From contig JAJECO010000023.1 of NCBI GenBank assembly GCA_022822005.1, forward strand, positions 29,904 through 93,903: a stretch of 64,000 nucleotides of DNA. The letters run 5' to 3'. The stretch comes from Candidatus Poribacteria bacterium (lineage in GTDB: Bacteria > Poribacteria > WGA-4E > PCPOR2b). The translations under genes and the position numbers were made by a program. Positions 1 to 64,000 of the stretch are shown piece after piece (position 1 is the first letter of the stretch; each line of letters starts with the position of its first letter). Below the pieces are notes generated by a model, which was not told the DNA's origin, did no database searches, and saw only the letters and a list, made by a program, of their open reading frames with translations.

Positions 1-1
1 G

Positions 2-403
2 GAACGCGAGGCGGATTTCTATCTGGTCGATAACGCTGGATTGAGGCACCGTTGCGAAGTGAAGTTGATGGGCAGAGGGAATCCAGAAAGTGCGGATGCC
101 GTACATGCCCGTAGCAGCCAAGTTTTTGTTGCGGATAAACTCTCCGACCTGCATAAAGCACAACTCGACGATTCAGACATCCAGTGGGTAGAGCTGCGAG
201 ATGAAAACGGTTACAAGCGGTTTGAGCAGGTCTTAACGGCGTTATCAATTCCTTGTCAACCCTTTGAAGGTGATATACAGTCAGCGTTAGATGAGATCTT
301 TCCAGTTATACTTTCCGACGATGTTCAATCTTCATCAACCCCTGGTATTACTCTTCAAGAGCGGAGTAGTGATGATTCGCAGCTGCTCGTGGACTTTGAA
401 TAA
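2..403 (+). CDS. C-terminal fragment of unknown protein; the 5' end lies outside the window
   Basis: Frame 2 is open from the window edge, with no stop upstream of the ORF-track start at 41. There is no recognisable motif. Confidence 0.35.
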   Translation, partial: EREADFYLVDNAGLRHRCEVKLMGRGNPESADAVHARSSQVFVADKLSDLHKAQLDDSDIQWVELRDENGYKRFEQVLTALSIPCQPFEGDIQSALDEIFPVILSDDVQSSSTPGITLQERSSDDSQLLVDFE

Positions 404-564
404 AATAAAGTGCACAGGGACGGTATCGCCCTAAGCAACTAGACGATCGCCTCCCCATTGTGATGGACGAGGTGACGCCGATTGAGACAGAGTTGAAACT
501 TCCACCCCTTGATGGTGGAACGCAGGAGAAAAGAGTAAATCATGAAATACAATAAGGAGCAAAA

Positions 565-1002
565 ATGAAAAGACTCGTTATCCTTGCATGTTCACAGCGC
601 AAGGTTCAAGGTAAGCGCGTAATGCCTGCGATGGACAGATATGATGGTCCTGCGTATAAGGTTGTGCGGAAGTGGCTGCGCACTATTCCTGATGCTCGGC
701 CCCACCATGATTTTCTCATTTTATCGGCGGAGTTCGGGCTGATTTCCGAGAGCCAGCGTATCCCTTACTATGACCGGCGCATGAGTGTCGAGCGGGCGAA
801 AGAACTGCATGAGGAAACCCTCTATACTCTCAAGCCCATTTTAAGCTCTGGCATCTATCGCGCCGTTTTTGTCTGCATGGGCAAGACCTATCGGGGTGCA
901 ATTGAAGGCGTCAATGCCTTTTTTCCTGACATACAATACTCTCACGGTAGGATTGGTATGCAGCTCTCTCAACTCCGCCAATTTTTGTATAAGGCGGAAT
1001 AA
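565..1002 (+). CDS. hypothetical protein with conserved-looking N-terminal LACSxxK...DRYDGPxY motif
   Basis: AAGGAG RBS 7 nt upstream of the ATG. AT-rich codon usage typical of the island. It is basic, small and has no TM segments. Confidence 0.5.
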   Translation: MKRLVILACSQRKVQGKRVMPAMDRYDGPAYKVVRKWLRTIPDARPHHDFLILSAEFGLISESQRIPYYDRRMSVERAKELHEETLYTLKPILSSGIYRAVFVCMGKTYRGAIEGVNAFFPDIQYSHGRIGMQLSQLRQFLYKAE

Positions 1003-1023
1003 TTACAATAGCGAGGTGAAAGT

Positions 1024-1440
1024 ATGGTTTCAGAGCAAGTAATTAGGCGAATTACCGGTAAAACTGGTTTGTATTATACCGCTTTCAAGTTGTCTGAGCG
1101 TGGTTGGAATGTGTTTCCTCAAGAGAACGGTCTATATAAGCCTAATATATTGGTCTGTGAGAGCCTAGACGGAAACCGAAAGATGTGCGTCCAAGTCAGG
1201 AGCTTTAAGGATCGAGATCCCGTTCAAATCAGCCAAGGGGGTCTGAAGTGCAATTATTGGGTTATGGTGCACGCCATAGCGTCTGGCAAACCAGAGGCTT
1301 ACATTCTGCCTATTGATGAAGTCAAAAAACATCTGAAGCACAACGCCGGTGGGAGTGCCGTATGGTTAAATGAGAAGTTTAAGTATTATGAAGACAATCA
1401 ATTCAAAGAAAAATGGGAACAAATAGGAAACGGCTTTTAA
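1024..1440 (+). CDS. putative Hjc-like PD-(D/E)xK-fold protein, catalytic residues apparently degenerate
   Basis: GAGGTGA RBS. The pattern G..(S)ER.....-NILV-...VQVRS resembles the Hjc-type nuclease core, but with N/Q/R at the usual D/E/K positions. Confidence 0.35.
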   Translation: MVSEQVIRRITGKTGLYYTAFKLSERGWNVFPQENGLYKPNILVCESLDGNRKMCVQVRSFKDRDPVQISQGGLKCNYWVMVHAIASGKPEAYILPIDEVKKHLKHNAGGSAVWLNEKFKYYEDNQFKEKWEQIGNGF

Positions 1441-1674
1441 TCAACCCAGTATAAATTTACACTTTTTCACGTGAAGCGATGTCCTTGTTGATTTTGTGTA
1501 AAGCGTTTAGGGCAAATGCTTGATAAAATATGTTATCAGACATTTTGAGGTCATTTTTGGGGAAAGAAAGAAAATAAGATCCAGTCATAGCAAGGATCTT
1601 AACAGTCTCAATGAGCAAAAAATATGTCCGATAATTGTAGCGGAGCGATTTTGAAGTAGAACAAGGAGAACAAT

Positions 1675-1965
1675 ATGGCAAATTTACATGGTTTACAACC
1701 TAAACAACTTGCTCGGATTGGTATGTTTTATCTTGAGGAAGCAATTTTAGATGTGTTGTTTGAAGCAGAAATGGGCAATCGGCAAGGATTAGGTCCTACA
1801 GAAATTAGCAAGAGGCTTGGCACTTTTCTGCCATGGTATAACCCCGGAGATCTTATCGTTGCCGGTTTTCTAATAAAACTCGAAAATCAAGGCTTAGTCG
1901 TGCATCCTAGGCGCGGTGATTGGAGACTATCCGAAAAGGGGCGTGAAAATCGCCGTCACGATTGA
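1675..1965 (+). CDS. small winged-helix DNA-binding protein
   Basis: AAGGAG RBS. A 96-aa protein with the segment ISKRLG...GFLIKLENQGLV, typical of a wHTH recognition helix and wing. Confidence 0.5.
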   Translation: MANLHGLQPKQLARIGMFYLEEAILDVLFEAEMGNRQGLGPTEISKRLGTFLPWYNPGDLIVAGFLIKLENQGLVVHPRRGDWRLSEKGRENRRHD

Positions 1966-1981
1966 TGAAGGGAGCGTCAAT

Positions 1982-2461
1982 ATGCGAACCGTCAGGGTTG
2001 AATGGGAGGGACCACTCTCTCTTGACAAAGTGAAAGAGTTAGACGACAGAGACGAGGACTGCGGTTTATACCAGATCTATGGTCGCCACATCATCTTCGG
2101 AGATGATTCCCTGCTCTACATTGGAATGACAACCTCGACTTTCAGGCGACGATTTATTGATGGCACCGAACCACACATATCGTGGCTAGTGGAGGAGGAG
2201 GGGGTGTCGGTTTATGTGGGTCGAATTGCGGAAGAAGATTATGAGCATGATCCGCCACATTGGTCAGATTGGGAGAATGTTCTCAAGGATGCTGAAGCAC
2301 TTACCATCAAATGGCACTCACCGCCATATAATTCACGCAACATTGAAACCTATAACGGTCAGCGCCTGGAAGTTGTGAATCTTGGTAGTTACGGTAGTTT
2401 ATGCAAAAAATACAGAAGTCGAGACCGTAAAAGGTGGGGGTGGTCAGGAGATTACGGTTAG
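1982..2461 (+). CDS. GIY-YIG nuclease-domain protein
   Basis: GLYQIYG...LLYIGMT...FRRRF matches the GIY-(10-15 aa)-YIG-Arg core. ATG at 1982 with a GAAGGGA RBS. A GTG at 1916 is an alternative start that would overlap the wHTH gene. Confidence 0.6.
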   Translation: MRTVRVEWEGPLSLDKVKELDDRDEDCGLYQIYGRHIIFGDDSLLYIGMTTSTFRRRFIDGTEPHISWLVEEEGVSVYVGRIAEEDYEHDPPHWSDWENVLKDAEALTIKWHSPPYNSRNIETYNGQRLEVVNLGSYGSLCKKYRSRDRKRWGWSGDYG

Positions 2462-2773
2462 TCTTTTGATTGTTTCCAAATGAAAGGGGGAATTAGCGAA
2501 TAAGAGCAGCATAGAATCAATAGGGAGGCACCATTGAGATAACGTAAGACAAAAGTTGTGTCGTCGGAAATTTGCTTTGCCTGTTTTAATGCCGAAACAT
2601 TAAGCGAATGTGCCGGTTCATTCCAGAAGGGTTTTAGAAATGCCGATGGCAATCCGAGACGTGAAAAGGTCACGATAAATATCCGAAGAATCCCGGATGA
2701 CGCCCTTGTTGCTATTCGGGAATTCTAGCCCAAAACCACGGCGACGTTGGACGGGTAGAGGAAGATTTGACAA

Positions 2774-3205
2774 ATGGATTCTATAAAAGACTTTATAACT
2801 GACTGGTCAATTATGGGAGCTATTCTAAAAATAGTAATAGTTGCTTCTCCATTCTTAATCAGACAAATAGCCAAACTTGTCAACCTCAGAAAAGACATGG
2901 AAGGACTCAAATTAATTATAGACGGGGACAAAAAGCAAATTGCTACTGACAGAGCAAATACTAAGGAAGATATGGAGTACGCTAAGAAATACAGGGACGA
3001 AGCTAGGGCAGATAAAATCGCAATTGAACAAATGAAAGAAGATATTACAAAAAAAGTAGAAGCCGTCAACAGTCAACTTTCTAGCGCCCGAAGCCGCGCA
3101 GAGCTTAGCTCCATAGGTGGTGAAACAGAAAGGGCTAGCAGAGAAAAACGGATAGAGTTAGAAAAGATCGCAGAGATAGTTAAGAAACACCTGAAGCCAT
3201 ATTAA
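2774..3205 (+). CDS. membrane-anchored coiled-coil protein
   Basis: N-terminal hydrophobic helix (WSIMGAILKIVIVASPFLI) followed by a Lys/Glu-rich coiled-coil. About 35% GC. Confidence 0.45.
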   Translation: MDSIKDFITDWSIMGAILKIVIVASPFLIRQIAKLVNLRKDMEGLKLIIDGDKKQIATDRANTKEDMEYAKKYRDEARADKIAIEQMKEDITKKVEAVNSQLSSARSRAELSSIGGETERASREKRIELEKIAEIVKKHLKPY

Positions 3206-3284
3206 AGATTGGAACTTTTCAAGAGGTGTTGTGGAATACTTTGAATATCGACGCATTTCAAAAAAATAAAAGGAGATTGCCATT

Positions 3285-4004
3285 ATGCAACTTGGAGACA
3301 TACCCGACTCAAACCTTCGCACTGTGATTGCCGTTCAACTTGAAGAGCAGGCAGTTAATGATTTAGCTGATGCGCGGGAATTAAATTTACAAGAGACTGG
3401 TATAAGCAAATTGGATGGACTTGAAAAGGCAAAGAAGTTGGTTGTTCTAAGAGCAGGCGGTAATTCTATCTCCGATTTGTCGCCTTTGAAAGAGTTAACC
3501 AATTTGAAGACTCTCGATTTTTGGGGGAATACGATAGAAAATATTTTACCTCTAAAAGGATTGAAAAATTTGCGTGGATTGTGGTTCCAGAACAATCAGA
3601 TAAAGGATTTGTCCCCTTTGGAGGACTTAATCAACCTAGAATATCTGAATCTTGAGGGCAATAAGATAAAACATATTACCTCTTTACAGGGGCTAACTAA
3701 TCTGAGGTGGCTATGGCTACAAAACAACTCAATAGAAGACATATCATCGCTTGCTGATATGGAAGGATTGGAGGGTTTGTGGCTTCAGGATAACTTGATA
3801 ACCAACATTGCGACTCTGAAGAGAATTTCCAAACTGACAAGGCTGGAGATTGACATAAATTCACTGTCAGATTTTGAATATCTAAAAGGACTAAGGAATA
3901 AGCATAGACTAGTGGTTGAGATAGAATCTCCAGTACCTTTGAGTTTCTTCGACGGTGACGGGCGAGGAGGCATCCTGAAAGTGGTTGTTAGGGAATATAA
4001 TTAG
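3285..4004 (+). CDS. leucine-rich-repeat (internalin-type) protein
   Basis: About eight 22-aa repeats of LxxLxxLxxLxLxxNxIxDIxxL. AAGGAG RBS. No signal peptide. Confidence 0.7.
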   Translation: MQLGDIPDSNLRTVIAVQLEEQAVNDLADARELNLQETGISKLDGLEKAKKLVVLRAGGNSISDLSPLKELTNLKTLDFWGNTIENILPLKGLKNLRGLWFQNNQIKDLSPLEDLINLEYLNLEGNKIKHITSLQGLTNLRWLWLQNNSIEDISSLADMEGLEGLWLQDNLITNIATLKRISKLTRLEIDINSLSDFEYLKGLRNKHRLVVEIESPVPLSFFDGDGRGGILKVVVREYN

Positions 4005-4106
4005 GGGTGTTATTTATAATTTTCAACGATTTACGGGCGATGGATTGGACATCTGACTGAACATCGGGGTAGTCCCTGTTTAATTCTGATCTTTCCGAGT
4101 TCGCCA

Positions 4107-5399
4107 ATGCAGCCCAGGAGATCCTCCTTGAGCACAACAACAACCAATAGCAGCGAACCAATCGGATACCGTGAACTGATTCGCGGCAACCGTAATTTTC
4201 GCCTGCTCTGGTTTGGACAGATTATCAGCCTCCTGGGGGATTGGTTCAACTTTGTCGCTTCCGCTTCGCTCATCGCAATACTCACCCAGTCCGGGTTCGC
4301 TGTCGGCAGCCTCTTCGTCGTCCGGATGCTCGCCCCATTCTTCATCAGTCCCATCGCTGGTGTGGTCGCCGACCGTTATAACCGCAAAAATATCCTCATC
4401 ATAACCGACCTAACGCGTGCTGTAGCCGCATTCGGTTTCCTCTTCGTCCGGAGCGCCGATCATGTCTGGCTCCTTTACGTTCTCACCGCCCTCCAACTCG
4501 GCATCAGCGGCTTCTTCTTCCCCACACGCAATGCAATTTTACCCGATATAGTTTCATCACAAGGGCTTGGTGCTGCCAACGCCTTAGGGTCCGCGACATG
4601 GTCGGTTATGCTCGCCGTGGGCGCTGCCATCGGCGGAATAGTGTCCGGCGCGTGGGGCATCTACCCCGCCTTTGTCATTGACGGCTTGACCTTTCTCCTC
4701 TCTGCTGCATTCATCATTCCCATTAAACTTGATGCGAAACCCGCCCCCGCGGCGTCGGACAAAACTATGGGGGCTGCCGTCACGGAGTACCTCGACGGTT
4801 TACGTTATCTGGGCAGGCATACCGATACACTGGTCGTCGCACTACATAAAGCCGCCAGCGCACTGGTGATGGGGTCAGGATCTCAGGTCGCAATGGTCGT
4901 CATCGCCAAAGATATCTTTGTAATTGGGGAAGGTGGGGGTATCAGTCTCGGTCTCATGCTTGGGATGGGCGGCATCGGAACAGGGATCGGTCCCATTATC
5001 GCTCGCCATTTCACCGGGGATCGGGATCGTCCGTTGCGGTATGCCATCATTTTGGGCTATCTGATGGGCGCTGTGGGACTGGCAATCGTCGCGCCGATGA
5101 TCCAATTCGGCTGGGTGCTTCTGGGTGTCACCCTCCGTGGAATTGGCGGGGGAATTATATGGGTGTTCTCAACACAACTCTTATTGCAGCTCGCCCCCAA
5201 TTCGGTGCGTGGCAGGGTTTTCTCCACCGACTATGCCCTTTTTACACTGATGAGCGCCATCGGTTCTGCGGCTGCGGGCGGGGCACTCGACGCCTCACTG
5301 AGCCTCCCTGCAATTTTCTGGTGGATGGCGGGTTTGACGGTGATCCCAGCGGTTCTCTGGGCGGCATGGCTGGGCGACAGAACCGAACACGAAACGTAA
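4107..5399 (+). CDS. MFS transporter
   Basis: 12 predicted TM segments. N-terminal FRLLWFGQ...LGDW motif of EntS/macrolide-efflux-like MFS transporters. Confidence 0.8.
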   Translation: MQPRRSSLSTTTTNSSEPIGYRELIRGNRNFRLLWFGQIISLLGDWFNFVASASLIAILTQSGFAVGSLFVVRMLAPFFISPIAGVVADRYNRKNILIITDLTRAVAAFGFLFVRSADHVWLLYVLTALQLGISGFFFPTRNAILPDIVSSQGLGAANALGSATWSVMLAVGAAIGGIVSGAWGIYPAFVIDGLTFLLSAAFIIPIKLDAKPAPAASDKTMGAAVTEYLDGLRYLGRHTDTLVVALHKAASALVMGSGSQVAMVVIAKDIFVIGEGGGISLGLMLGMGGIGTGIGPIIARHFTGDRDRPLRYAIILGYLMGAVGLAIVAPMIQFGWVLLGVTLRGIGGGIIWVFSTQLLLQLAPNSVRGRVFSTDYALFTLMSAIGSAAAGGALDASLSLPAIFWWMAGLTVIPAVLWAAWLGDRTEHET

Positions 5400-5411
5400 T
5401 GCGTGAAACAT

Positions 5412-5459
5412 AAAAACGAGAAGACGAGCTAAAGCCTTTGTCCCGTTATCTCGTTTTCT
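5412..5459. terminator. hairpin between convergent genes, possibly a bidirectional terminator
   Basis: AAAACGAGA....TCTCGTTTT inverted repeat between the MFS gene (+) and the isomerase gene (-). Confidence 0.3.
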
Positions 5460-5490
5460 ACTTCCTTGCGTCTTTGCGTTAAGATAGGTT

Positions 5491-6201
5491 TCACTGACCG
5501 AATCCGAGACTGCGGAGATGTGCGACCGCTTGCTTCATATCTCCGGGTGCCTGCATAATCCACGGTCCCTGAAAACCCACGTCTTCAAGAACCCCCTTGA
5601 CACCAGCGAAATCCACCGCCCCCGTACCCAGCGTTGGAAAATCCCATTCGTCAAAATTACCGCTGTGGTCCTTCAAATGGGCGCTCACAACATACTGTGC
5701 AATCTTTTTCAATTCCGTGACCGCATCCGCCCCATCCGTATAGAAACTGATATTCCCCGTATCGTAATTGATTCTTACATTCGGGTGGTCGGTAGCGTCC
5801 ATGGTTTTCAACGCAACCTCGGCATTATGCACCAGCGATGGATGCGTTTCAAGTGCGACAGTGATGCCACGCTGTGCCGCCTCATCACCCATCGTTTTCA
5901 GCCAATCGCAGACCTTTGGTCTCATTTCTTCATCGGCTTTGATGCTACTGAGTGCGAGATCTATGCCCATCTTGACCGCCGCATCAAACGCGTTTACCCA
6001 CGCCTGGCTCGCCGCCTCAGTGGCAACGGTATCCTCTTCGAGATATAACGCGGTCAATCCGATGGCTTGCAGCCCCTTCGCTTTGAGATCGGCCTGAAGT
6101 TCTTCGACCTTGTCAGGTTCAGGGGCACCGACTTGAACATATCGGATGCCGTGTTCTAAAAGCTCTGCACCGCCCCCTATATTTGCCAATACGTTTGCCA
6201 T
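5491..6201 (-). CDS. sugar phosphate isomerase/epimerase (xylose-isomerase-like TIM barrel)
   Basis: ALETHP and HLKD motifs. AAGGAG RBS. Confidence 0.75.
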   Translation of the reverse strand: MANVLANIGGGAELLEHGIRYVQVGAPEPDKVEELQADLKAKGLQAIGLTALYLEEDTVATEAASQAWVNAFDAAVKMGIDLALSSIKADEEMRPKVCDWLKTMGDEAAQRGITVALETHPSLVHNAEVALKTMDATDHPNVRINYDTGNISFYTDGADAVTELKKIAQYVVSAHLKDHSGNFDEWDFPTLGTGAVDFAGVKGVLEDVGFQGPWIMQAPGDMKQAVAHLRSLGFGQ

Positions 6202-6420
6202 ACCGACTCCTTTCTGCGCGGGTGAAACCGCGCTTCCGCTCTTCTCGACTTATGCACTTTGTGCGTGACTATGCACTATCTTACACCCTTGGCGGACGGA
6301 TCGCAAGCCGTTTGTTGAGTTGGTCTAAATTTTTTGCCCTTTTTTTCTAATCGTGCTATAATGTTTGCTCAATTGCCAGAGTCTTTTCCGCCGCTAAATG
6401 AGTGAGGAACGGTTTGCAAC

Positions 6421-7293
6421 ATGCTTAACGATTCACAAATCGCGACATTCAAAGAAGAAGGTTACCTGATTATTGAGAACCTCTTTACCGATGACGATCT
6501 GCGCCCCGTGAAGGACGAGTTCAGCACCGTTGTCGAACAGCAGGCACAGCAACTACATCAAGCTGGGCGGCTGAGCGATTTGTACAAAAACGAGTCATTT
6601 GAACAGCGTCTGGCAAAAATTGCTGCCGAAGCACCCGAAGCGACCTCCGCACTACAAACCCGTGCCCATAAAGACGAGGCATTCTTTCAGTTCCTGAAAC
6701 ACCCCAAAATTCTTGACCGGGTCGAGTCGCTGGTGGGTCCCGATATCCTGTGCCACCCCTCCTACAACATCCATCCACGCCTACCGGGAGGATATACCAC
6801 CCCGCATCAGGATGCCGGATTTTACCTGCCCGATGGCGATGAGACGTTGATTCTGGCATGCCTGATACCGCTCGTTGATACCACACCTGAAAATGGGTGT
6901 CTATGGGTCGCCCCACGCCGACATAAGGAAGGCGTTTTGCGCCATGTCTGGGGCGAGGATGGACTAAACATCTCCCCTGAAGAGCTCTCAGAAGAAGAAC
7001 GACAGCCAGTGCCTACAAAGGTAGGCAGCATGGTGATGTTTACCAGTATGACGCCGCACGGTTCGCGGGTTAATAATACAGATACCATCCGTTGGAGTAT
7101 GGATCTGCGCTACCAAGCACTGGGGAAGCCCACGGGACGTTGGTATGTCCCCGGCTTTGTCGCTCGGAGCCGCTCCAACCCTGAATTAGAAACACCGAAC
7201 TGCACGGCGTGGATTGCTGAAGTGGAACGCGTCGAGCAGAAGGCGAATAAATACCCCGAATGGCCACGCTACCGTTGGCCCCAGACATCATAG
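6421..7293 (+). CDS. phytanoyl-CoA dioxygenase (PhyH) family Fe(II)/2OG oxygenase
   Basis: N-terminal F..EGYL.I.N.F pattern, the HQD iron ligands and a distal His. Confidence 0.75.
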   Translation: MLNDSQIATFKEEGYLIIENLFTDDDLRPVKDEFSTVVEQQAQQLHQAGRLSDLYKNESFEQRLAKIAAEAPEATSALQTRAHKDEAFFQFLKHPKILDRVESLVGPDILCHPSYNIHPRLPGGYTTPHQDAGFYLPDGDETLILACLIPLVDTTPENGCLWVAPRRHKEGVLRHVWGEDGLNISPEELSEEERQPVPTKVGSMVMFTSMTPHGSRVNNTDTIRWSMDLRYQALGKPTGRWYVPGFVARSRSNPELETPNCTAWIAEVERVEQKANKYPEWPRYRWPQTS

Positions 7294-7345
7294 ATAACCC
7301 AAGCGCAACTGTGTAATTCGTAAACCTGTTCTAAGGATTTTCTCT

Positions 7346-8158
7346 ATGGTCCGAATCCCAATAACCATGTGCCACGGCATCAGGCATGACGGCGACTATC
7401 CATTGACCGCGGACCATCTCGACAGACTGGTGAAAATTGCTGCCGAACTGAACTTTGAATCCATCAATTACGATCAGCTTTTTCAATGGTTCCAAGAGGG
7501 AGAGGAGTTGCCGCATCGACCGATCATGTTTGACTTCGATCACCCTGTGAAGTCAATGCGTTATGAAATACATGATGTCCTGAACAAATACGGCTACGCT
7601 GGAAATCTGTTTGTCAATACCGGACCGGTAGATGAACTCTACGCCAAGCCTATGCCGTCGGATCTCGTCCGTGAGACTATGACCTGGGACGAGATGGGCC
7701 AGCTCATAGAAAGCGGTTGGCATATCGGGGCACATACGGTAACGCATCCGAACCTGTCTGAACTCTCCCTTGAGGATGCGTCCGGCGAAAAATTACGGGC
7801 GGAACTGGAGCGGTGCGATGAAACATTGAAAAAGCATCTCGGAATTACGCCAAAAGACTTCGCTTTTACAGGCACAAGTTGGAGCAGTATCGCAGAACGT
7901 GAAGTCTCAAAAAGATATCGGTTTGGCAGGCTCTGGATTGTGGGAACAGAATATCAAGTTGATGGCAAGAGGACGAGATACGCCGATCTCGTCGGGGTTG
8001 ATGGTCCCGACGAAGCGGACGGTGGACCGCCAATAGCGGCGCGTTATATCACAAAGGATTCGCCCCCTTATCGTCTGCCATCGATGGAAATTCAGAGATC
8101 CCTAATTTATGACACCGACGCGTTTCGCCGTTACCTTGAAGGCGCACTAAAGACTTAG
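7346..8158 (+). CDS. polysaccharide deacetylase (NodB-homology) family protein
   Basis: FDFDHP and GAHTVTHPNL motifs. Confidence 0.7.
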   Translation: MVRIPITMCHGIRHDGDYPLTADHLDRLVKIAAELNFESINYDQLFQWFQEGEELPHRPIMFDFDHPVKSMRYEIHDVLNKYGYAGNLFVNTGPVDELYAKPMPSDLVRETMTWDEMGQLIESGWHIGAHTVTHPNLSELSLEDASGEKLRAELERCDETLKKHLGITPKDFAFTGTSWSSIAEREVSKRYRFGRLWIVGTEYQVDGKRTRYADLVGVDGPDEADGGPPIAARYITKDSPPYRLPSMEIQRSLIYDTDAFRRYLEGALKT

Positions 8159-8176
8159 GCTTATGTAAAAAGAAAT

Positions 8177-8233
8177 AGGAGTTACGCACTTCAGATTGTA
8201 GCTGCCTGTTTCTTAATCCCGATTTATCGGGGA
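8177..8233. repeat. 57-bp repeat unit (copy 1 of 2), including the CCCGATTTATCGGG hairpin
   Basis: Nearly identical to 19727-19783. Confidence 0.7.
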
Positions 8234-8303
8234 TTTAAGGATTTTCAGGATAGAAACCGGAACGTGACATGGGACTATTTTAGAAAGGGACAGGGGGTAT
8301 TTA

Positions 8304-8380
8304 GCCCCAGCGGGGCGACATGTTTATAGCATACGGATAGCCCCATACCCCAAAGCCCCAGCGGGGCGACATGTGCCATT
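8304..8380. repeat. two direct copies of the 21-bp motif AGCCCCAGCGGGGCGACATGT
   Basis: Each copy contains a GCCCC-AGC-GGGGC hairpin. The copies are about 50 bp apart. Confidence 0.7.
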
Positions 8381-8506
8381 TGTCTGAATCGCAGATTGCT
8401 CTCTCACACGAAAGCGATTTATGTACACCCCTCAATTACTTGGACACTGCAAATCGGCGAGGTAGGCAAACCTCGACTACTAGGGTTAGAAAAATCTGGG
8501 CTATCA

Positions 8507-8600
8507 CCCGGTAGGTGCGGTTTTTAACCGCACTGAAGCGGCGCAGTTAGAAACAGCGCCTACCAAACATGACGAGCAAAAGTGTCTATTTGTTTTTAGA
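8507..8600. repeat. REP-like block (GTGCGGTT-TTT-AACCGCAC hairpin plus AAAGTGTCTATTTGTTTTTA), copy upstream of the SDR gene
   Basis: Direct repeat of 9425-9507. The pair flanks the SDR gene 8632-9399. Confidence 0.7.
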
Positions 8601-8631
8601 ATTCACTATAAATGTTAAAGGAAGTAAATAG

Positions 8632-10624: not shown

Positions 10625-10831
10625 ATGAGCTACAAGCGACGCAACATTATCCAAGCACTCCGCGAATATGGCTTTGAAGTTCTGCGTGAAGGTAGACGAC
10701 ATACGATATATTCGCGTGGCGAGATAACAGTCCCTGTTCCGCGCCATCGTCAAATCACGCCAGCAACATCTCGAAGTATTGCAAGAATCATTGGTGTGCC
10801 TTGGCGAGAATTTGAATCCAAAATCTCATAA
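10625..10831 (+). CDS. hicA: type II toxin HicA (YcfA-like mRNA interferase)
   Basis: 68-aa protein with L.EYGFEV.REG..H...SRG.ITVP.PRH..I...T...I....G. Confidence 0.7.
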   Translation: MSYKRRNIIQALREYGFEVLREGRRHTIYSRGEITVPVPRHRQITPATSRSIARIIGVPWREFESKIS

Positions 10832-10843
10832 GGAGCATGAAAC

Positions 10844-11047
10844 ATGGAGTATTTTACAGTAGAGATTCAACGAGATGGGAATTTCTTTGTCGCTCAGTGC
10901 GTTGAGGAAGAATCCTGTTTCACGCAGGGAAAAACACTTCAGGAAACCATCCGTAATATGCGCGAAGTTTTAGAATTAATGTTAGATGTCAAGCATCCTC
11001 AACTAGAGGTGCACTTACGGCACGATGCAGTTGAGGTGTTTGCTTGA
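10844..11047 (+). CDS. hicB: antitoxin HicB (short UPF0150-type)
   Basis: 67-aa protein, Y.V.I.RDG.F.A.C.E...C.TQG.TLQET..N..E..EL. It starts 12 nt after the hicA stop. AAGGAG RBS. Confidence 0.65.
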   Translation: MEYFTVEIQRDGNFFVAQCVEEESCFTQGKTLQETIRNMREVLELMLDVKHPQLEVHLRHDAVEVFA

Positions 11048-61349: not shown

Positions 61350-62711
61350 ATGCGGTATACCCCAGATCAAATCTGGTCGAAAATTCTGTCCGAGTTAGGC
61401 GACACCATTCGTGAAGATGTCTATCTGCGTCAAGCTAAACCAATGGCACTCACAGAAAATGAACTAACAGTTTCAGTTCCAAGTGTGTATACACAGGATC
61501 AAATTGCCAGTCGTTTTCTTCCCGATATCAACAGTCTCCTAGAGAAGCAAATCGGCGCAAGTTGCCGACTCAAAATCATTGCTGCACAACCAGACGGAAA
61601 AAGACAGCCTGAACCTTCAGTCTCATCTGCCCCGTCCGCCGCTCCTGAAGCCACCTCTGAAACAGCCCCTGAAACCGAGACAACCCTTAACCCCGAATAT
61701 ACGTTCGACCGGTTTGTAGTAGGAACAGGCAACCGTTTAAGCCATGCCGCATCACTGGCTGTGGCGGAAAATCCAGGGAAAATTTATAACCCGCTCTTCA
61801 TCTATGGCGGCGTTGGATTGGGTAAGACGCACCTTCTGCACGCGATTGGCAACCGGATCCAAGCGGTTCATTCCAAGCAGAAAGTACTCTATATATCTTC
61901 CGAAACCTTTATGAATGAATACATCGACTCTATCATCACTCGTACAACGGCATTTGATTTCCGAAGCAAATATCGGACGGTCGATGTACTCCTTATTGAT
62001 GATATTCAGTTTTTACAACGTAAGGAGGGCACTCAGGAAGAATTTTTCCATACTTTTAATGAGCTTCATCAAAATTCAAACCATATTGTAATGACAAGCG
62101 ACCGACCACCAAAAAACCTTGAAACGGTTGAAGAGCGCCTACGCTCCCGGTTTGAGTGGGGAATGGTTGCAGACATCAGTCCCCCACAATTTGAAACACG
62201 GATCGCTATCCTTCGCCAGAAGTGTGAAGACCAAAACTTGGAAAATGTTCCCGACTCCGTTTTAAGCTATATTGCCGAAGTAATTCAAACAAATATTCGA
62301 GACCTAGAAGGATCGCTTATCCGGGTTGCCGCAGAAGCAAGCCTTTTCAACGAGGAGTTGACAGTCAATTTTGCTCAGAATGTGTTAGATAATGTCGCGA
62401 CACCGCCTCCCCGAATTAATTCTACAGCCATCACAGCAGAAGATATCCAAAAAGCGGTGGCGGCCTATTTTCGACTCAAAATCAGTGACCTTAAATCCTC
62501 TACACGCACAAAAGCGGTTGTTGTTCCCCGACAAATTGCCATGTATCTTTGCCGCCAACTAACCAGCCTCTCCCTAATGGAAATTGCCGCTGCTTTCGGT
62601 AGGCAAGATCATACAACTATTTTACACGCTAACAACCGAATTGAAGAGAGTATCCGAACAGATGCAGAGCTTTACCAAACAATTAACTTTTTAATCGAAG
62701 ATATTCAATAA
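61350..62711 (+). CDS. dnaA: chromosomal replication initiator protein DnaA
   Basis: Walker A GGVGLGKTHL, sensor motifs and the C-terminal DnaA-box-binding HTH. Confidence 0.95.
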   Translation: MRYTPDQIWSKILSELGDTIREDVYLRQAKPMALTENELTVSVPSVYTQDQIASRFLPDINSLLEKQIGASCRLKIIAAQPDGKRQPEPSVSSAPSAAPEATSETAPETETTLNPEYTFDRFVVGTGNRLSHAASLAVAENPGKIYNPLFIYGGVGLGKTHLLHAIGNRIQAVHSKQKVLYISSETFMNEYIDSIITRTTAFDFRSKYRTVDVLLIDDIQFLQRKEGTQEEFFHTFNELHQNSNHIVMTSDRPPKNLETVEERLRSRFEWGMVADISPPQFETRIAILRQKCEDQNLENVPDSVLSYIAEVIQTNIRDLEGSLIRVAAEASLFNEELTVNFAQNVLDNVATPPPRINSTAITAEDIQKAVAAYFRLKISDLKSSTRTKAVVVPRQIAMYLCRQLTSLSLMEIAAAFGRQDHTTILHANNRIEESIRTDAELYQTINFLIEDIQ

Positions 62712-62737
62712 TGGAAACATATTCCTTAAATTGTAAA

Positions 62738-62910
62738 TGTGGATAACTTGTGGATAACTCTGTGGATAACTTGTGGATAGTCTGTGGATTGTTGTGGATA
62801 AATATTGGTCTGTGGACAGATTGTGGATAACTTCACAAGTTATCCACAATCTGTCCACAGGCTTCCAGCCAGTCATGGCGCGGGTTTAGCCCAGTTATCC
62901 ACATATCCAC
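62738..62910. promoter_or_regulatory. oriC DnaA-box cluster (about 11 boxes, including a head-to-head palindromic pair), followed by an AT-rich unwinding element
   Basis: TGTGGATAA x8 head-to-tail at about 11-bp phasing (62738-62830). GTGGATAACTT-CAC-AAGTTATCCAC palindrome at 62823-62848. AT-rich 62919-63000. Confidence 0.75.
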
Positions 62911-63045
62911 ATCCCCTACTACTACTATTAAGTATATATAAATTAATAGATTAAAGAGTAGATAAGGAGTATATAATCACAATTTGTCAAAAAGTATTTA
63001 TGAAGATTTAACTTTGAAACCATAATTTTCTTTAGGAGAAAAAAG

Positions 63046-64000
63046 ATGCAATTGATTTTCACAAAAGAAGATCTGTTTAGATGTATCCAAGTATTACAAG
63101 GTGTAGCTGCTGGAAGGAATACCCTTCCAATATTATCGAATGTCCTAATTCGCGCAACAAATGGACAAATCGAAATTGCAGCTACTGATCTTGAAGTTAG
63201 TATCCAAACCGTCGTTCCCGGTACTATCATTGATGAAGGTACCATTACTGTATCGGCAAGAAAGCTGTCTGAGATTGTACGTGAGTTGCCAGACCAAGAG
63301 ATAAGACTGGCAACAACGGCGAATGATCGAATCGAAATTACCTGTGGAGAAGGCGTTTACAAAATTATCGGACTTCCTGATGATGAGTTTCCAGAACTCC
63401 CTTCAATTACTGGAGCGTTCTTTACAATTGATGGAGAATTGCTCTGTTCGATGATTGAGAAAACCGAGTTCTCTGCTTCTACTGAGGAAACGCGGTATTT
63501 CTTAAATGGGCTTTATTTAGATTTAACACCTGAAATCACCCAAATTGTTGCAACCGACGGACGACGGCTTGCTGTCGCATCAAGTGATACACTCATGCCA
63601 CCTCCAGAGGAACCGATAGGGGTTATCGTTCCACTCAAGGCGGTCCGAGAGATCTCCAAGACCTTTGCGGAATCCGCAGAGGTTAAAGTTTCCTTGCTAG
63701 AAAATCAGATTATTTTCGCTGATGATGACTCTACGTTGACCTCTCGGTTGGTCGAGGGAGAATATCCTAAGTACCAGCAGATTATCCCTAGCGATAATGA
63801 GATTCATCTGACACTTAATGTCGACAAAATGCTGGGCGGGTTGAGGCGAGTAGCACTGTTATCTAACCCAAAGACCTACTCAATTCGTTTGGATATTCAA
63901 GACGGCAAAGTAAGAATCTCTGCCAAGACACCCGAGCTTGGAGAGGCGTATGAAACGGTAGATGTTACAGGCGGTGAAGGGGAGATTCAGATCGCTTTTG
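63046..64000 (+). CDS. dnaN: DNA polymerase III beta sliding clamp (3' end outside window)
   Basis: MQLIFTKEDL...LPILSNVLI...ATDLEV N-terminal domain. GGAGAAAAAAG RBS. Confidence 0.9.
   Translation, partial: MQLIFTKEDLFRCIQVLQGVAAGRNTLPILSNVLIRATNGQIEIAATDLEVSIQTVVPGTIIDEGTITVSARKLSEIVRELPDQEIRLATTANDRIEITCGEGVYKIIGLPDDEFPELPSITGAFFTIDGELLCSMIEKTEFSASTEETRYFLNGLYLDLTPEITQIVATDGRRLAVASSDTLMPPPEEPIGVIVPLKAVREISKTFAESAEVKVSLLENQIIFADDDSTLTSRLVEGEYPKYQQIIPSDNEIHLTLNVDKMLGGLRRVALLSNPKTYSIRLDIQDGKVRISAKTPELGEAYETVDVTGGEGEIQIAF

What the first reader, a model, noticed from the sequence alone, without database searches (positions are those of the whole stretch)
404..4030. AT-rich block of six small same-strand genes of unknown function (candidate accessory or defence island)
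The region is about 40% GC against 55% or more for its neighbours. It encodes a small Cys-Ser-motif protein, an Hjc-like PD-(D/E)xK-fold protein, a 96-aa wHTH protein, a GIY-YIG nuclease-domain protein, a TM coiled-coil protein and an LRR protein. All have strong RBSs and short spacers. This composition, a nuclease domain plus a DNA-binding protein plus a sensor-like repeat protein plus a membrane protein, is typical of phage-defence or mobile islands. I recognise none of it as a described system. The left boundary is outside the window, and the partial ORF at 2-403 may belong to it.
Basis: partly seen in the sequence, partly recalled or inferred. Interest (0 to 1): 0.65.

Follow-up and report, generated by a model that had tools for sequence, protein, structure and literature searches.

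The report
Mosaic defence island in a sponge symbiont
The AT-rich six-gene block is not one system but the strain-variable cargo of a chromosomal hot spot in a probable Poribacteria (sponge-symbiont) genome, built from three independent two-gene modules of uncharacterised, mostly nuclease-related proteins.

Summary
The six same-strand genes with Shine-Dalgarno sites are real. The GC contrast is real but overstated: 42.6% against 49.9% for the rest of the window. Two of the "spacers" hold gene remnants, and a third holds a conserved 128-bp element.

Comparison with relatives shows a hot spot between a hydantoinase gene and the MFS gene at 4107. In related strains the same site carries TIR, GmrSD-HNH, KwaA, AAA_15/21 or IS630 genes instead.

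The block breaks into independent units.
- **REase.** A CfrBI-type restriction enzyme lies at the left edge.
- **Module A.** DUF6884 is paired with a 138-aa protein of PD-(D/E)xK fold. The pair is adjacent in at least five different contexts and in both gene orders. The 138-aa protein has N..QxR where its wider family has D..QxK.
- **Module B.** A 96-aa protein (a winged helix remains unshown) precedes a GIY-YIG nuclease. Next to it lies a relic of a gene that, in one relative, follows a methyltransferase.
- **Module C.** A membrane-anchored, highly charged protein is paired with an LRR protein. This pair recurs at three loci.

No module matches a described defence system. The only system-level hit is DUF6884 to the PADLOC candidate PDC-M57A.

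Verdict: the "defence or accessory island" reading is supported. The "one six-gene system" reading is not. The functions remain inferred.

The parts
2..403 (+). C-terminal 133 codons of a CfrBI-type type II restriction endonuclease. The gene starts left of the window.
   Evidence: PADLOC REase_II 6.7e-23. 92% nt identity to a 330-aa gene in L019 that matches RE_CfrBI at 1.7e-26.
412..531 (+). Relic of the 3' end of a 278/283-aa gene. In relatives that gene lies directly upstream of DUF6884 (L173-L178) or upstream of the REase (L019).
   Evidence: tblastn: 75% identity to the last 40 residues of the L019 283-aa protein. blastn: window 411-1634 matches L173 5385-6612 at 89%.
565..1002 (+). DUF6884 protein (145 aa), a YaaA/DpdC-like putative DNA-binding, base-flipping enzyme. 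First gene of module A.
   Evidence: PF21818 at 35.7 bits, above its cut-off of 30. PADLOC PDC-M57A 2.4e-8 and weak DpdC hits. CSQRK and LSAEFG motifs present. phrog_5935 2.2e-14.
1024..1440 (+). 138-aa PD-(D/E)xK-fold protein with a non-canonical N41..Q57-x-R59 motif. Second gene of module A.
1514..1641 (+). Conserved 128-bp junction element: ATGTCCGATAA-N5-6-TTATCGGACAT, then about 75 nt, then ATGTCCGATAAC. The window's own copy has a degenerate 5' half. Homology to strains with other cargo ends at its 3' end.
   Evidence: Alignments. nhmmer found 18 distinct copies in other fetched loci, all on the coding strand. Homology breakpoints at window 1634-1655 in five of six strains, and at 1558 in L174. 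No Rfam hit and no covariation.
1675..1965 (+). 96-aa small protein, possibly a winged helix. First gene of module B.
   Evidence: Weak Mrr_N hit, E 0.0076. Homologues at 47-74% identity lie 16 nt upstream of the GIY gene in L009, L010 and L020 and just upstream of the GIY match in L072. No PDB sequence match.
1982..2461 (+). 159-aa GIY-YIG-fold nuclease. Second gene of module B.
2480..2725 (+). Pseudogene relic: the last 82 codons of a 221-aa gene. In L020 that gene follows wHTH, GIY and an N6_N4 methyltransferase.
   Evidence: tblastn: 79% identity to residues 140-221 of the L020 221-aa protein. The L020 methyltransferase matches PF01555 at 1e-40.
2774..3205 (+). 143-aa protein with one N-terminal TM segment and a highly charged remainder. 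First gene of module C.
   Evidence: Kyte-Doolittle 2.02 for residues 11-29; 38% charged residues. Only 2 homologues besides itself, and both are followed by the LRR gene.
3285..4004 (+). 239-aa LRR protein with 22-residue internalin-type repeats and no strongly hydrophobic N-terminal segment. Second gene of module C.
   Evidence: LRR_4 5e-29. 73% aa identity in L090 and 82% nt identity in L091, each directly after the TM-protein homologue.
4037..4106 (.). Right junction of the variable region with the conserved core. The MFS gene is at 4107-5399.
   Evidence: blastn homology to L174 and L177 resumes at 4037, and to L173 and L178 at 4076-4085. GC rises from 0.40 to 0.55 here.

Best explanation
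The block is the cargo of a chromosomal integration hot spot, a defence or accessory island, in a genome most likely of Candidatus Poribacteria, a sponge symbiont. It is a mosaic of small cassettes that are gained, lost and decayed independently. It is not a six-gene machine.

Shown:
- The core flanks are conserved: PhyH, hydantoinase, a 120-aa gene and a 278-aa gene on the left; MFS, AP-endonuclease and PhyH on the right.
- The content between those flanks is strain-specific.
- Recombination scars are present: two gene relics, and a 128-bp element at which homology between strains stops.
- There are three co-inherited gene pairs.

Inferred mechanisms:
- **Module A.** DUF6884 is a YaaA/DpdC-like DNA binder with a CxxxK/LSAxxG pocket that Pfam's curators predict to flip a base. 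I propose it recognises or chemically alters a base in DNA. The 138-aa Hjc/I-Ssp6803I-like partner would act as an oligomeric DNA-binding subunit, probably non-catalytic or atypical, because its family's D and K are replaced by N and R.
- **Module B.** The GIY-YIG protein keeps the residues expected for catalysis. It occurs alone in many genomes without being lethal, so it is more likely a modification-dependent or nicking nuclease than a classical restriction enzyme. The 96-aa protein would be its regulator or DNA-targeting partner.
- **Module C.** I propose the N-terminal TM segment tethers the charged protein to the membrane and that it works with the LRR protein in protein recognition. That could be host interaction, as proposed for eukaryote-like repeat proteins of sponge symbionts, or sensing of an invader's protein.

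The confidence of 0.6 is for the whole statement. The mosaic hot-spot part alone I put at about 0.85. That the modules act in defence I put at about 0.5. The specific mechanisms are below 0.3 each.
For: **Hot spot.**
- The identical 138-aa protein P0280 lies on 24 contigs. The 10 places shown share the same left flank, and six different cargos reach the same MFS gene.
- The alternative cargo matches PADLOC PDC-S35 (1e-67) and PDC-S15 (1.9e-27), and Pfam GmrSD_N, HNH, KwaA and AAA_15/21.
- GC is low across the island in the relatives as well, at 0.40-0.475 against 0.52-0.54 for the flank.

**Organism.**
- The closest GIY and REase loci are in Candidatus Poribacteria MAGs.
- An MFS cluster member lies on a contig whose length equals that of a Poribacteria chromosome.

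**Pairing.**
- The 138-aa gene and DUF6884 are adjacent in L002, L003/L004, L005, L007 and the window-type locus. Both gene orders occur, and the genes overlap by 11 nt in L002-L004.
- TM plus LRR is adjacent in the window, L090 and L091.
- The 96-aa gene plus GIY is adjacent in the window, L009, L010, L020 and L072.

**Folds and motifs:**

**Decay and turnover.**
- Two gene relics lie in the window.
- GIY is truncated in L173.
- DUF6884 carries a nonsense codon in L177.

**Phage origin unlikely.** The GIY family has 2 hits in 2.9 million viral contigs. DUF6884 and GIY have no match in GenBank phages.
Against: - No module matches a described defence system. PADLOC gives only PDC-M57A for DUF6884 and nothing for the other five proteins.
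- No experiment exists, and the organism is uncultivated.
- The 138-aa protein lacks the acidic and lysine residues of the canonical motif, so a nuclease role for it is doubtful.
- DUF6884 relatives on plasmids sit among genes annotated as SprT-like, thermonuclease and ParA proteins. That would fit DNA repair or anti-restriction as well as defence.
- Relatives of the 138-aa protein below about 50% identity are not next to DUF6884, so the pairing is clade-specific.
- LRR proteins are very common in sponge symbionts and need not have anything to do with defence (PMC4850255).
- One GIY clade sits at a fixed core position in 8 Poribacteria genome loci, which suggests a housekeeping-like role for part of the family.
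Confidence: 0.6

Rival explanations
1. All six genes form one multi-component defence system made of a sensor, a DNA binder, nucleases and a membrane effector.
For: The genes share a strand and a low GC content, and each has its own Shine-Dalgarno site. The mix of domains resembles known multi-gene systems.
Against: No other fetched locus carries more than two of the six together, apart from the identical Logan contig. Relatives at the same site keep DUF6884 and the 138-aa gene but replace the rest. Gene relics and a junction element separate the modules.
Confidence: 0.03
2. The block is a graveyard of selfish or decayed elements: homing-endonuclease-like genes and remnants of restriction-modification cassettes with little present function.
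For: - The best structural match of the 138-aa protein is a homing endonuclease, and GIY-YIG is a classical homing-endonuclease fold.
- Two pseudogene relics lie in the window.
- The methyltransferase that follows GIY in L020 is missing here.
- GIY is truncated in L173 and DUF6884 carries a nonsense codon in L177.
- The 138-aa protein has a degenerate catalytic motif.
Against: - All six ORFs are intact and keep their Shine-Dalgarno sites.
- DUF6884 and the 138-aa protein are about 80% identical at the protein level across five contexts, with their adjacency kept despite an inverted gene order.
- The GIY residues expected for catalysis are invariant in 51 homologues.
- No intron or intein context was seen.
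Confidence: 0.22
3. The 128-bp element is the recombination site of an integron-like cassette-exchange system, and the genes are its cassettes.
For: - The element is bounded by 11-nt inverted and direct repeats.
- All copies found lie in the same orientation, each closely followed by a different gene wherever a downstream start was examined.
- Homology between strains ends exactly at its 3' end.
- L174 and L176 carry a second copy inside their variable region.
Against: - No integrase lies in the window or in L173-L178.
- The repeats do not fit the attC core consensus (my reading of the sequence).
- Only one copy lies in this window, although it holds three modules.
- The element could equally be a shared terminator hairpin plus promoter or operator, with homologous recombination between copies.
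Confidence: 0.12
4. Module A is not a defence module. It is a DNA-repair or anti-restriction function of mobile elements.
For: - A DUF6884 member (YfjM) was pulled down on abasic and RNA-base lesions, according to Pfam's curators (PMC11701544).
- Plasmid homologues lie beside genes annotated as SprT-like, thermonuclease and ParA proteins.
- In L002-L004 the pair sits beside ParA, and in L002 also beside ParB_N.
- There is a PHROG match.
Against: - Here the pair sits at the edge of a chromosomal defence hot spot, next to a restriction enzyme.
- The PADLOC authors list a DUF6884 model as a defence candidate.
- No homologue was found in GenBank phages or IMG/VR.
Confidence: 0.2

Closest known systems
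Defence islands at chromosomal integration hot spots (conserved core flanks, strain-variable defence cargo)
   Same: Core flanks are conserved. At least six alternative cargos occupy one site, and they include TIR, GmrSD, KwaA and AAA_15/21 genes and an REase. GC is low, and transposase and gene relics are present.
   Different: No integrase or tRNA marks the site. The cargo of this window matches no described system. A conserved 128-bp element marks the junction.
PADLOC candidate PDC-M57 (model PDC-M57A) and Pfam DUF6884; distantly YaaA and DpdC of the dpd DNA-modification cluster
   Same: The first gene matches PDC-M57A (2.4e-8) and PF21818 above its threshold, and it matches DpdC and YaaA weakly. 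It carries the CxxxK and LSAxxG motifs.
   Different: No neighbour matches any other PDC-M57 model. No DpdA (TGT) or DpdB gene lies in the window. The partner here is a small PD-(D/E)xK-fold protein that is absent from PADLOC and Pfam.
Small PD-(D/E)xK nucleases: I-Ssp6803I, Hjc, NhoI/Eco15I and the nuclease domain of SPARDA
   Different: No sequence similarity is detectable. The canonical D..(D/E)xK motif is N..QxR here and D..QxK in the wider family. There is no intron context, and the protein is paired with DUF6884.
GIY-YIG restriction and defence nucleases (R.Eco29kI, T4 EndoII, PD-T4-3)
   Same: GIY-YIG fold with conserved Tyr, Arg, Glu and Asn. The protein is small and sits in a defence island. 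In L020 it lies next to an N6_N4 methyltransferase.
Eukaryote-like LRR proteins of sponge symbionts; internalin-type LRR
   Same: 22-residue LRR_4 repeats, and the best NCBIfam matches are internalins. Enrichment of LRR proteins in sponge symbionts is documented (PMC4850255).
   Different: The protein is only 239 aa, has no signal peptide or anchoring domain, and scores far below the internalin cut-offs (100 against 1600 bits). It is encoded as a pair with a TM protein.

Membership tests
Defence island / integration hot spot | The same core genes flank the site in related genomes | tested here: met
   PhyH, hydantoinase, a 120-aa gene and a 278-aa gene lie on the left in L173-L178. MFS, AP_endonuc_2 and PhyH lie on the right where the locus reaches that far. 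L091 shares the right flank.
Defence island / integration hot spot | Content between the flanks varies between strains and is enriched in defence genes | tested here: met
   At least six alternative cargos. They match PDC-S35 TIR 1e-67 and PDC-S15 1.9e-27, and include GmrSD_N-HNH, KwaA, AAA_15/21, EcoRI methylase and a CfrBI-type REase.
Defence island / integration hot spot | The genes protect against phage or plasmids | not testable with these tools
   Needs heterologous expression and challenge.
DUF6884 (PF21818) | Profile score above Pfam's gathering cut-off, and CxxxK plus LSAxxG motifs | tested here: met
   35.7 bits against a cut-off of 30. C9-S-Q-R-K13 and L72-S-A-E-F-G77 are present. 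The motifs are described in PMC11701544.
PADLOC candidate system PDC-M57 | All component genes are present together | tested here: inconclusive
   Component A matches at 2.4e-8. No neighbouring protein matches any other PDC-M57 model at E up to 1. The composition of PDC-M57 could not be looked up.
dpd (7-deazaguanine DNA modification) cluster | DpdA (TGT-like) and DpdB (ParB-like) accompany the DpdC-like protein | tested here: not met
   Only weak DpdC hits (2.2e-4). There is no TGT or ParB gene in the block. L002 has a ParB_N gene beside its copy.
PD-(D/E)xK nuclease superfamily (138-aa protein) | The alpha-beta-beta-beta-alpha-beta core fold | tested here: met
PD-(D/E)xK nuclease superfamily (138-aa protein) | Catalytic D..(D/E)xK residues on strands 2 and 3 | tested here: not met
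   The window protein has N41, Q57 and R59. In 74 family members the same columns are D in 57, Q in 58 and K in 56. N41 always occurs together with R59.
GIY-YIG nuclease superfamily | GIY..YIG motifs with conserved Arg, Glu and Asn, and the GIY-YIG fold | tested here: met
Type II restriction-modification system (96-aa protein, GIY, methyltransferase) | A cognate DNA methyltransferase is encoded next to the nuclease | tested here: not met
   There is no methyltransferase in window 1-4100. Only a relic remains of the gene that follows the methyltransferase in L020. GIY homologues stand alone in many genomes.
Integron cassette array | An IntI-type tyrosine recombinase lies next to the array, and attC sites follow each cassette | tested here: not met
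   No integrase homologue lies in the window or in L173-L178. There is one element copy for three modules. The repeats do not fit RYYYAAC/GTTRRRY (my reading of the sequence).
Toxin-antitoxin pair (module A) | Loss of one partner is not tolerated | tested here: not met
   L177 carries a nonsense codon in DUF6884 with the 138-aa gene intact. A 46%-identical relative (P0110) occurs without DUF6884.
Internalins (NCBIfam) | Score above the family cut-off | tested here: not met
   100 bits against a cut-off of 1600 for InlA. Only the LRR region matches.

The most novel reading that the evidence does not exclude
Two readings are not excluded.

(a) DUF6884 plus the small nuclease-fold protein with a degenerate active site is a new two-gene DNA-surveillance system. 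In it a base-flipping enzyme, not a canonical nuclease, would do the recognition or the damage.

(b) The 128-bp element, bounded by ATGTCCGATAA repeats, is the exchange site or shared control region of a previously undescribed cassette system that shuffles defence genes in Poribacteria.
Probability: 0.15. Interest if true: 0.7.

Novelty: new variant of a known kind. Interest (0 to 1): 0.42.

Why it matters
Sponge symbionts are uncultivated. They are known to be rich in defence genes and in eukaryote-like repeat proteins, but almost none of these genes has been characterised.

This locus gives a cleanly delimited hot spot with many natural cargo variants. It also yields three compact two-gene modules that are small enough to synthesise and test in E. 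coli.

Module A would give a first functional context for DUF6884, a family that Pfam's curators predict to flip bases in DNA. The junction element could explain how cassettes are exchanged.

If none of this holds, the locus is one more ordinary defence island.

Tried and rejected
- **Profile searches.** I searched all six proteins against NCBIfam and PHROGs. Only DUF6884 and LRR gave informative hits.
- **PDB sequence searches.** Profiles of the 138-aa family and the GIY family, and the 96-aa protein alone, found nothing.
- **Fusion of the 96-aa protein to GIY.** The 250-275-aa GIY homologues carry C-terminal extensions, not an N-terminal 96-aa domain.
- **DUF6884 beside the wider 138-aa family.** Among 80 metagenome loci, the neighbours of the D..QxK clade show no recurrent family and no DUF6884 motifs. 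P0110 also lacks a DUF6884 neighbour.
- **138-aa-family proteins beside plasmid DUF6884 genes.** None was found.
- **RNA reading of the element and spacers.** Rfam gave no match reaching a family's gathering score, and RNAalifold found no compensatory pair.
- **Promoter and terminator scan.** It gave no more sites than shuffled sequence.
- **Integrase search.** No integrase lies in the window or in L173-L178.
- **Viral collections.** The element and DUF6884 are absent. GIY has 2 distant hits.
- **Source contig.** It could not be retrieved beyond 125 nt left of the window, so the left flank is inferred from relatives.
- **Tool limits.** The first alignment of the 138-aa family was too divergent for the locus search. 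The afdb50 fold library was unavailable.

Full report
**1. Observation**

Six + strand ORFs lie at 565-1002, 1024-1440, 1675-1965, 1982-2461, 2774-3205 and 3285-4004. Each has an AGGAG-like Shine-Dalgarno site.

GC of 404-4030 is 42.6%. Same-size windows elsewhere in the 64 kb average 49.9% (sd 2.3, minimum 43.5). The next 4 kb is 53%. The block is therefore the most AT-rich stretch of its size in the window, but the contrast is about 7-10 points, not 15.

The spacers are 161, 21, 234, 16, 312, 79 and 102 nt, so "short spacers" holds only within pairs.

**2. Identity of the proteins**

- **ORF 2-403.** This is the C-terminus of a CfrBI-type type II restriction endonuclease (PADLOC REase_II 6.7e-23). 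It is 92% identical at the nucleotide level to a full 330-aa RE_CfrBI gene in locus L019.
- **Gene 1 (565-1002).** It is a DUF6884 protein. It scores 35.7 bits against PF21818, above the cut-off of 30. It matches PADLOC PDC-M57A at 2.4e-8 and hits DpdC and YaaA weakly. It has the CxxxK and LSAxxG motifs. Pfam's curators link these motifs to a putative base-flipping pocket in a YaaA-like DNA-binding fold (PMC11701544).
- **Gene 3 (1675-1965).** This 96-aa protein has only a weak Mrr_N hit.
- **Gene 5 (2774-3205).** It has one hydrophobic segment at residues 11-29. The rest of the protein is 38% charged.
- **Gene 6 (3285-4004).** It is an LRR_4 protein (5e-29) with 22-residue repeats and no strongly hydrophobic N-terminal segment.

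**3. Comparative context**

The decisive result is. A protein more than 90% identical to gene 2 lies on 24 contigs. The 10 places shown have one architecture: PhyH, PhyH, hydantoinase, a 120-aa gene, a 278-aa gene, DUF6884, the 138-aa gene, a variable segment, then MFS, AP_endonuc_2 and PhyH. The right-hand part matches window 4107-8158.

The variable segment differs between assemblies:
- L173 has an IS630 transposase.
- L174 has a 374-aa gene plus AAA_15/21.
- L175 and L176 have a TIR gene (PADLOC PDC-S35, 1e-67), an EcoRI methylase, GmrSD_N-HNH, a phage-tube-like gene and FRG-TPR.
- L177 has the same set plus KwaA.
- L178 has GIY plus a PDC-S15-like 581-aa gene.

blastn maps window 411-1645 to these loci at 89% identity. 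Homology resumes at 4037-4085.

In L019, a Poribacteria chromosome, the order is hydantoinase, a 117-aa gene, a 283-aa gene, the CfrBI REase, the element, an HSDR_N-like gene, GIY and then IS3. DUF6884 and the 138-aa gene are absent there.

L091 carries a shortened TM-protein gene, the LRR gene and then MFS and the rest, in synteny at 82-88% identity.

The closest loci for GIY and the REase are all Candidatus Poribacteria MAGs. I therefore infer that the source is a Poribacteria genome.

**4. Modules**

- **Module A (DUF6884 plus the 138-aa gene).** The two genes are adjacent in the window-type locus, with DUF6884 first and a 21-nt spacer. They are also adjacent in L002, L003/L004, L005 and L007, with the 138-aa gene first and an 11-nt overlap in L002-L004. 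Those neighbours include ParA, ParB_N, an RRXRR HNH gene, CBASS, type ISP R-M and transposases. Both proteins stay about 78-81% identical. Keeping adjacency through a change of gene order argues for a functional link.
  - The link is clade-specific. P0110 (46% identity, also N/R type) lacks a DUF6884 neighbour.
  - Eighty loci of the D..QxK clade show no recurrent neighbour.
  - Plasmid DUF6884 genes have other neighbours.
  - L177 has a nonsense codon in DUF6884 beside an intact 138-aa gene, so the pair is not an addiction module.
- **Module B (the 96-aa gene plus GIY).** The two are adjacent in the window, L009, L010, L020 and L072. GIY also follows an HSDR_N-like gene in L011, L012 and L019. 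It stands alone directly after the element in L178. It also sits alone between the H+-PPase and biotin carboxylase genes in 8 Poribacteria genome loci.
  - In L020 the order is 96-aa gene, GIY, an N6_N4 methyltransferase (1e-40), a 221-aa gene and FRG-TPR.
  - Window 2480-2725 encodes the last 82 residues of that 221-aa protein at 79% identity.
  - The window therefore carries a deleted version of that cassette.
- **Module C (TM protein plus LRR).** The TM protein has only two homologues besides itself. Both are followed within 15 nt by the LRR gene (L090 and L091). In both, methyltransferase fragments lie upstream.

**5. The junction element**

Window 1514-1641 is a 128-bp element. Its layout is ATGTCCGATAA, 5-6 nt, TTATCGGACAT, about 75 conserved nt, then ATGTCCGATAAC. 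The window's own copy has a degenerate 5' half.

nhmmer finds 18 distinct copies in other fetched loci. All lie on the coding strand. Where the downstream start was examined, each lies 25-45 nt upstream of the Shine-Dalgarno site or start codon of a different gene.

Homology between the window and five of the six strains L173-L178 stops at its 3' end. In L174 it stops inside the element.

The element has no Rfam match and no compensatory substitutions. Its 5' hairpin folds at -10 to -15 kcal/mol in most copies, but is degenerate in the window's copy at -7.2. No integrase is nearby, and the element is absent from IMG/VR.

It may be a shared terminator plus promoter or operator that also serves as a substrate for homologous exchange. 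It may instead be a true recombination site. I could not decide between these.

**6. Mechanism (inferred)**

The locus is a defence or accessory hot spot whose cargo turns over by recombination at or near the element. Deletions then leave gene relics behind.

- **Module A.** A DUF6884 enzyme that binds DNA and may flip a base works with a small oligomeric protein of nuclease fold. That partner is probably non-catalytic or atypical.
- **Module B.** An active GIY-YIG nuclease is tolerated without a cognate methylase. It is therefore more likely modification-dependent or a nickase. The small upstream protein would be its regulator or targeting partner.
- **Module C.** A membrane-anchored charged protein is paired with a cytoplasmic LRR protein. 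It could be a host-interaction protein of the kind enriched in sponge symbionts (PMC4850255) or a protein sensor.

**7. Comparison and novelty**

The island type is well known. None of the three modules matches a described system. PADLOC gives only PDC-M57A on one gene.

I rate the finding as a new variant of a known kind and of moderate interest. Module A and the junction element are the parts worth following up.

Noticed in passing
window 10625-11047: A HicA toxin gene (PF07927, 1.3e-8) is followed by a UPF0150/HicB-like gene (3.4e-4). They lie in a second low-GC patch (GC 0.40-0.44 at 10.6-11.4 kb).
   Followed up: partly
window 61350-64000: dnaA lies at 61350-62711 (Bac_DnaA 3.9e-70). It is followed by about 1.3 kb of 42% GC DNA with no long ORF, which is probably oriC. 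The island therefore lies about 57 kb from the replication origin.
   Followed up: partly
window 8160-8630: This intergenic region carries short repeats (AGCCCCAGCGGGGCGACATGT twice, at 8303 and 8354). It has 73-95% blastn matches scattered in many unrelated Poribacteria loci (L002, L004, L008, L010-L014, L017, L026). It looks like a dispersed REP- or MITE-like repeat.
   Followed up: no
L008, L015-L018, L021, L023, L025 (about 6001-6450 in each): One clade of the GIY-YIG family (52-64% identity to the window protein) sits at a fixed core position between the H+-pyrophosphatase and biotin carboxylase genes in 8 Poribacteria genome loci. That suggests a domesticated or housekeeping-like copy.
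   Followed up: partly
L177 about 5640-5650; L173 6628-6874: There is decay within the hot spot. DUF6884 carries a CGA-to-TGA nonsense codon in L177, with the 138-aa gene intact. In L173 the GIY gene is reduced to a 70-aa remnant fused to the same 221-aa-gene relic seen in the window.
   Followed up: yes
L002 16426-18589: A second, longer DUF6884 protein (210 aa, 43% identity, with a C-terminal extension shared with an Aulosira plasmid protein) lies directly upstream of a HerA/DUF87 ATPase (PADLOC HerA 5.3e-32). This is a different DUF6884-containing candidate module.
   Followed up: partly
L063 5524-6986: In another Poribacteria chromosome, a 138-aa-family protein (31% identity), a GIY-family protein (36%), the 128-bp element and a second small GIY-YIG gene (PF01541, 1.4e-7) lie in a row. 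Small nuclease-fold genes seem to cluster around the element.
   Followed up: partly
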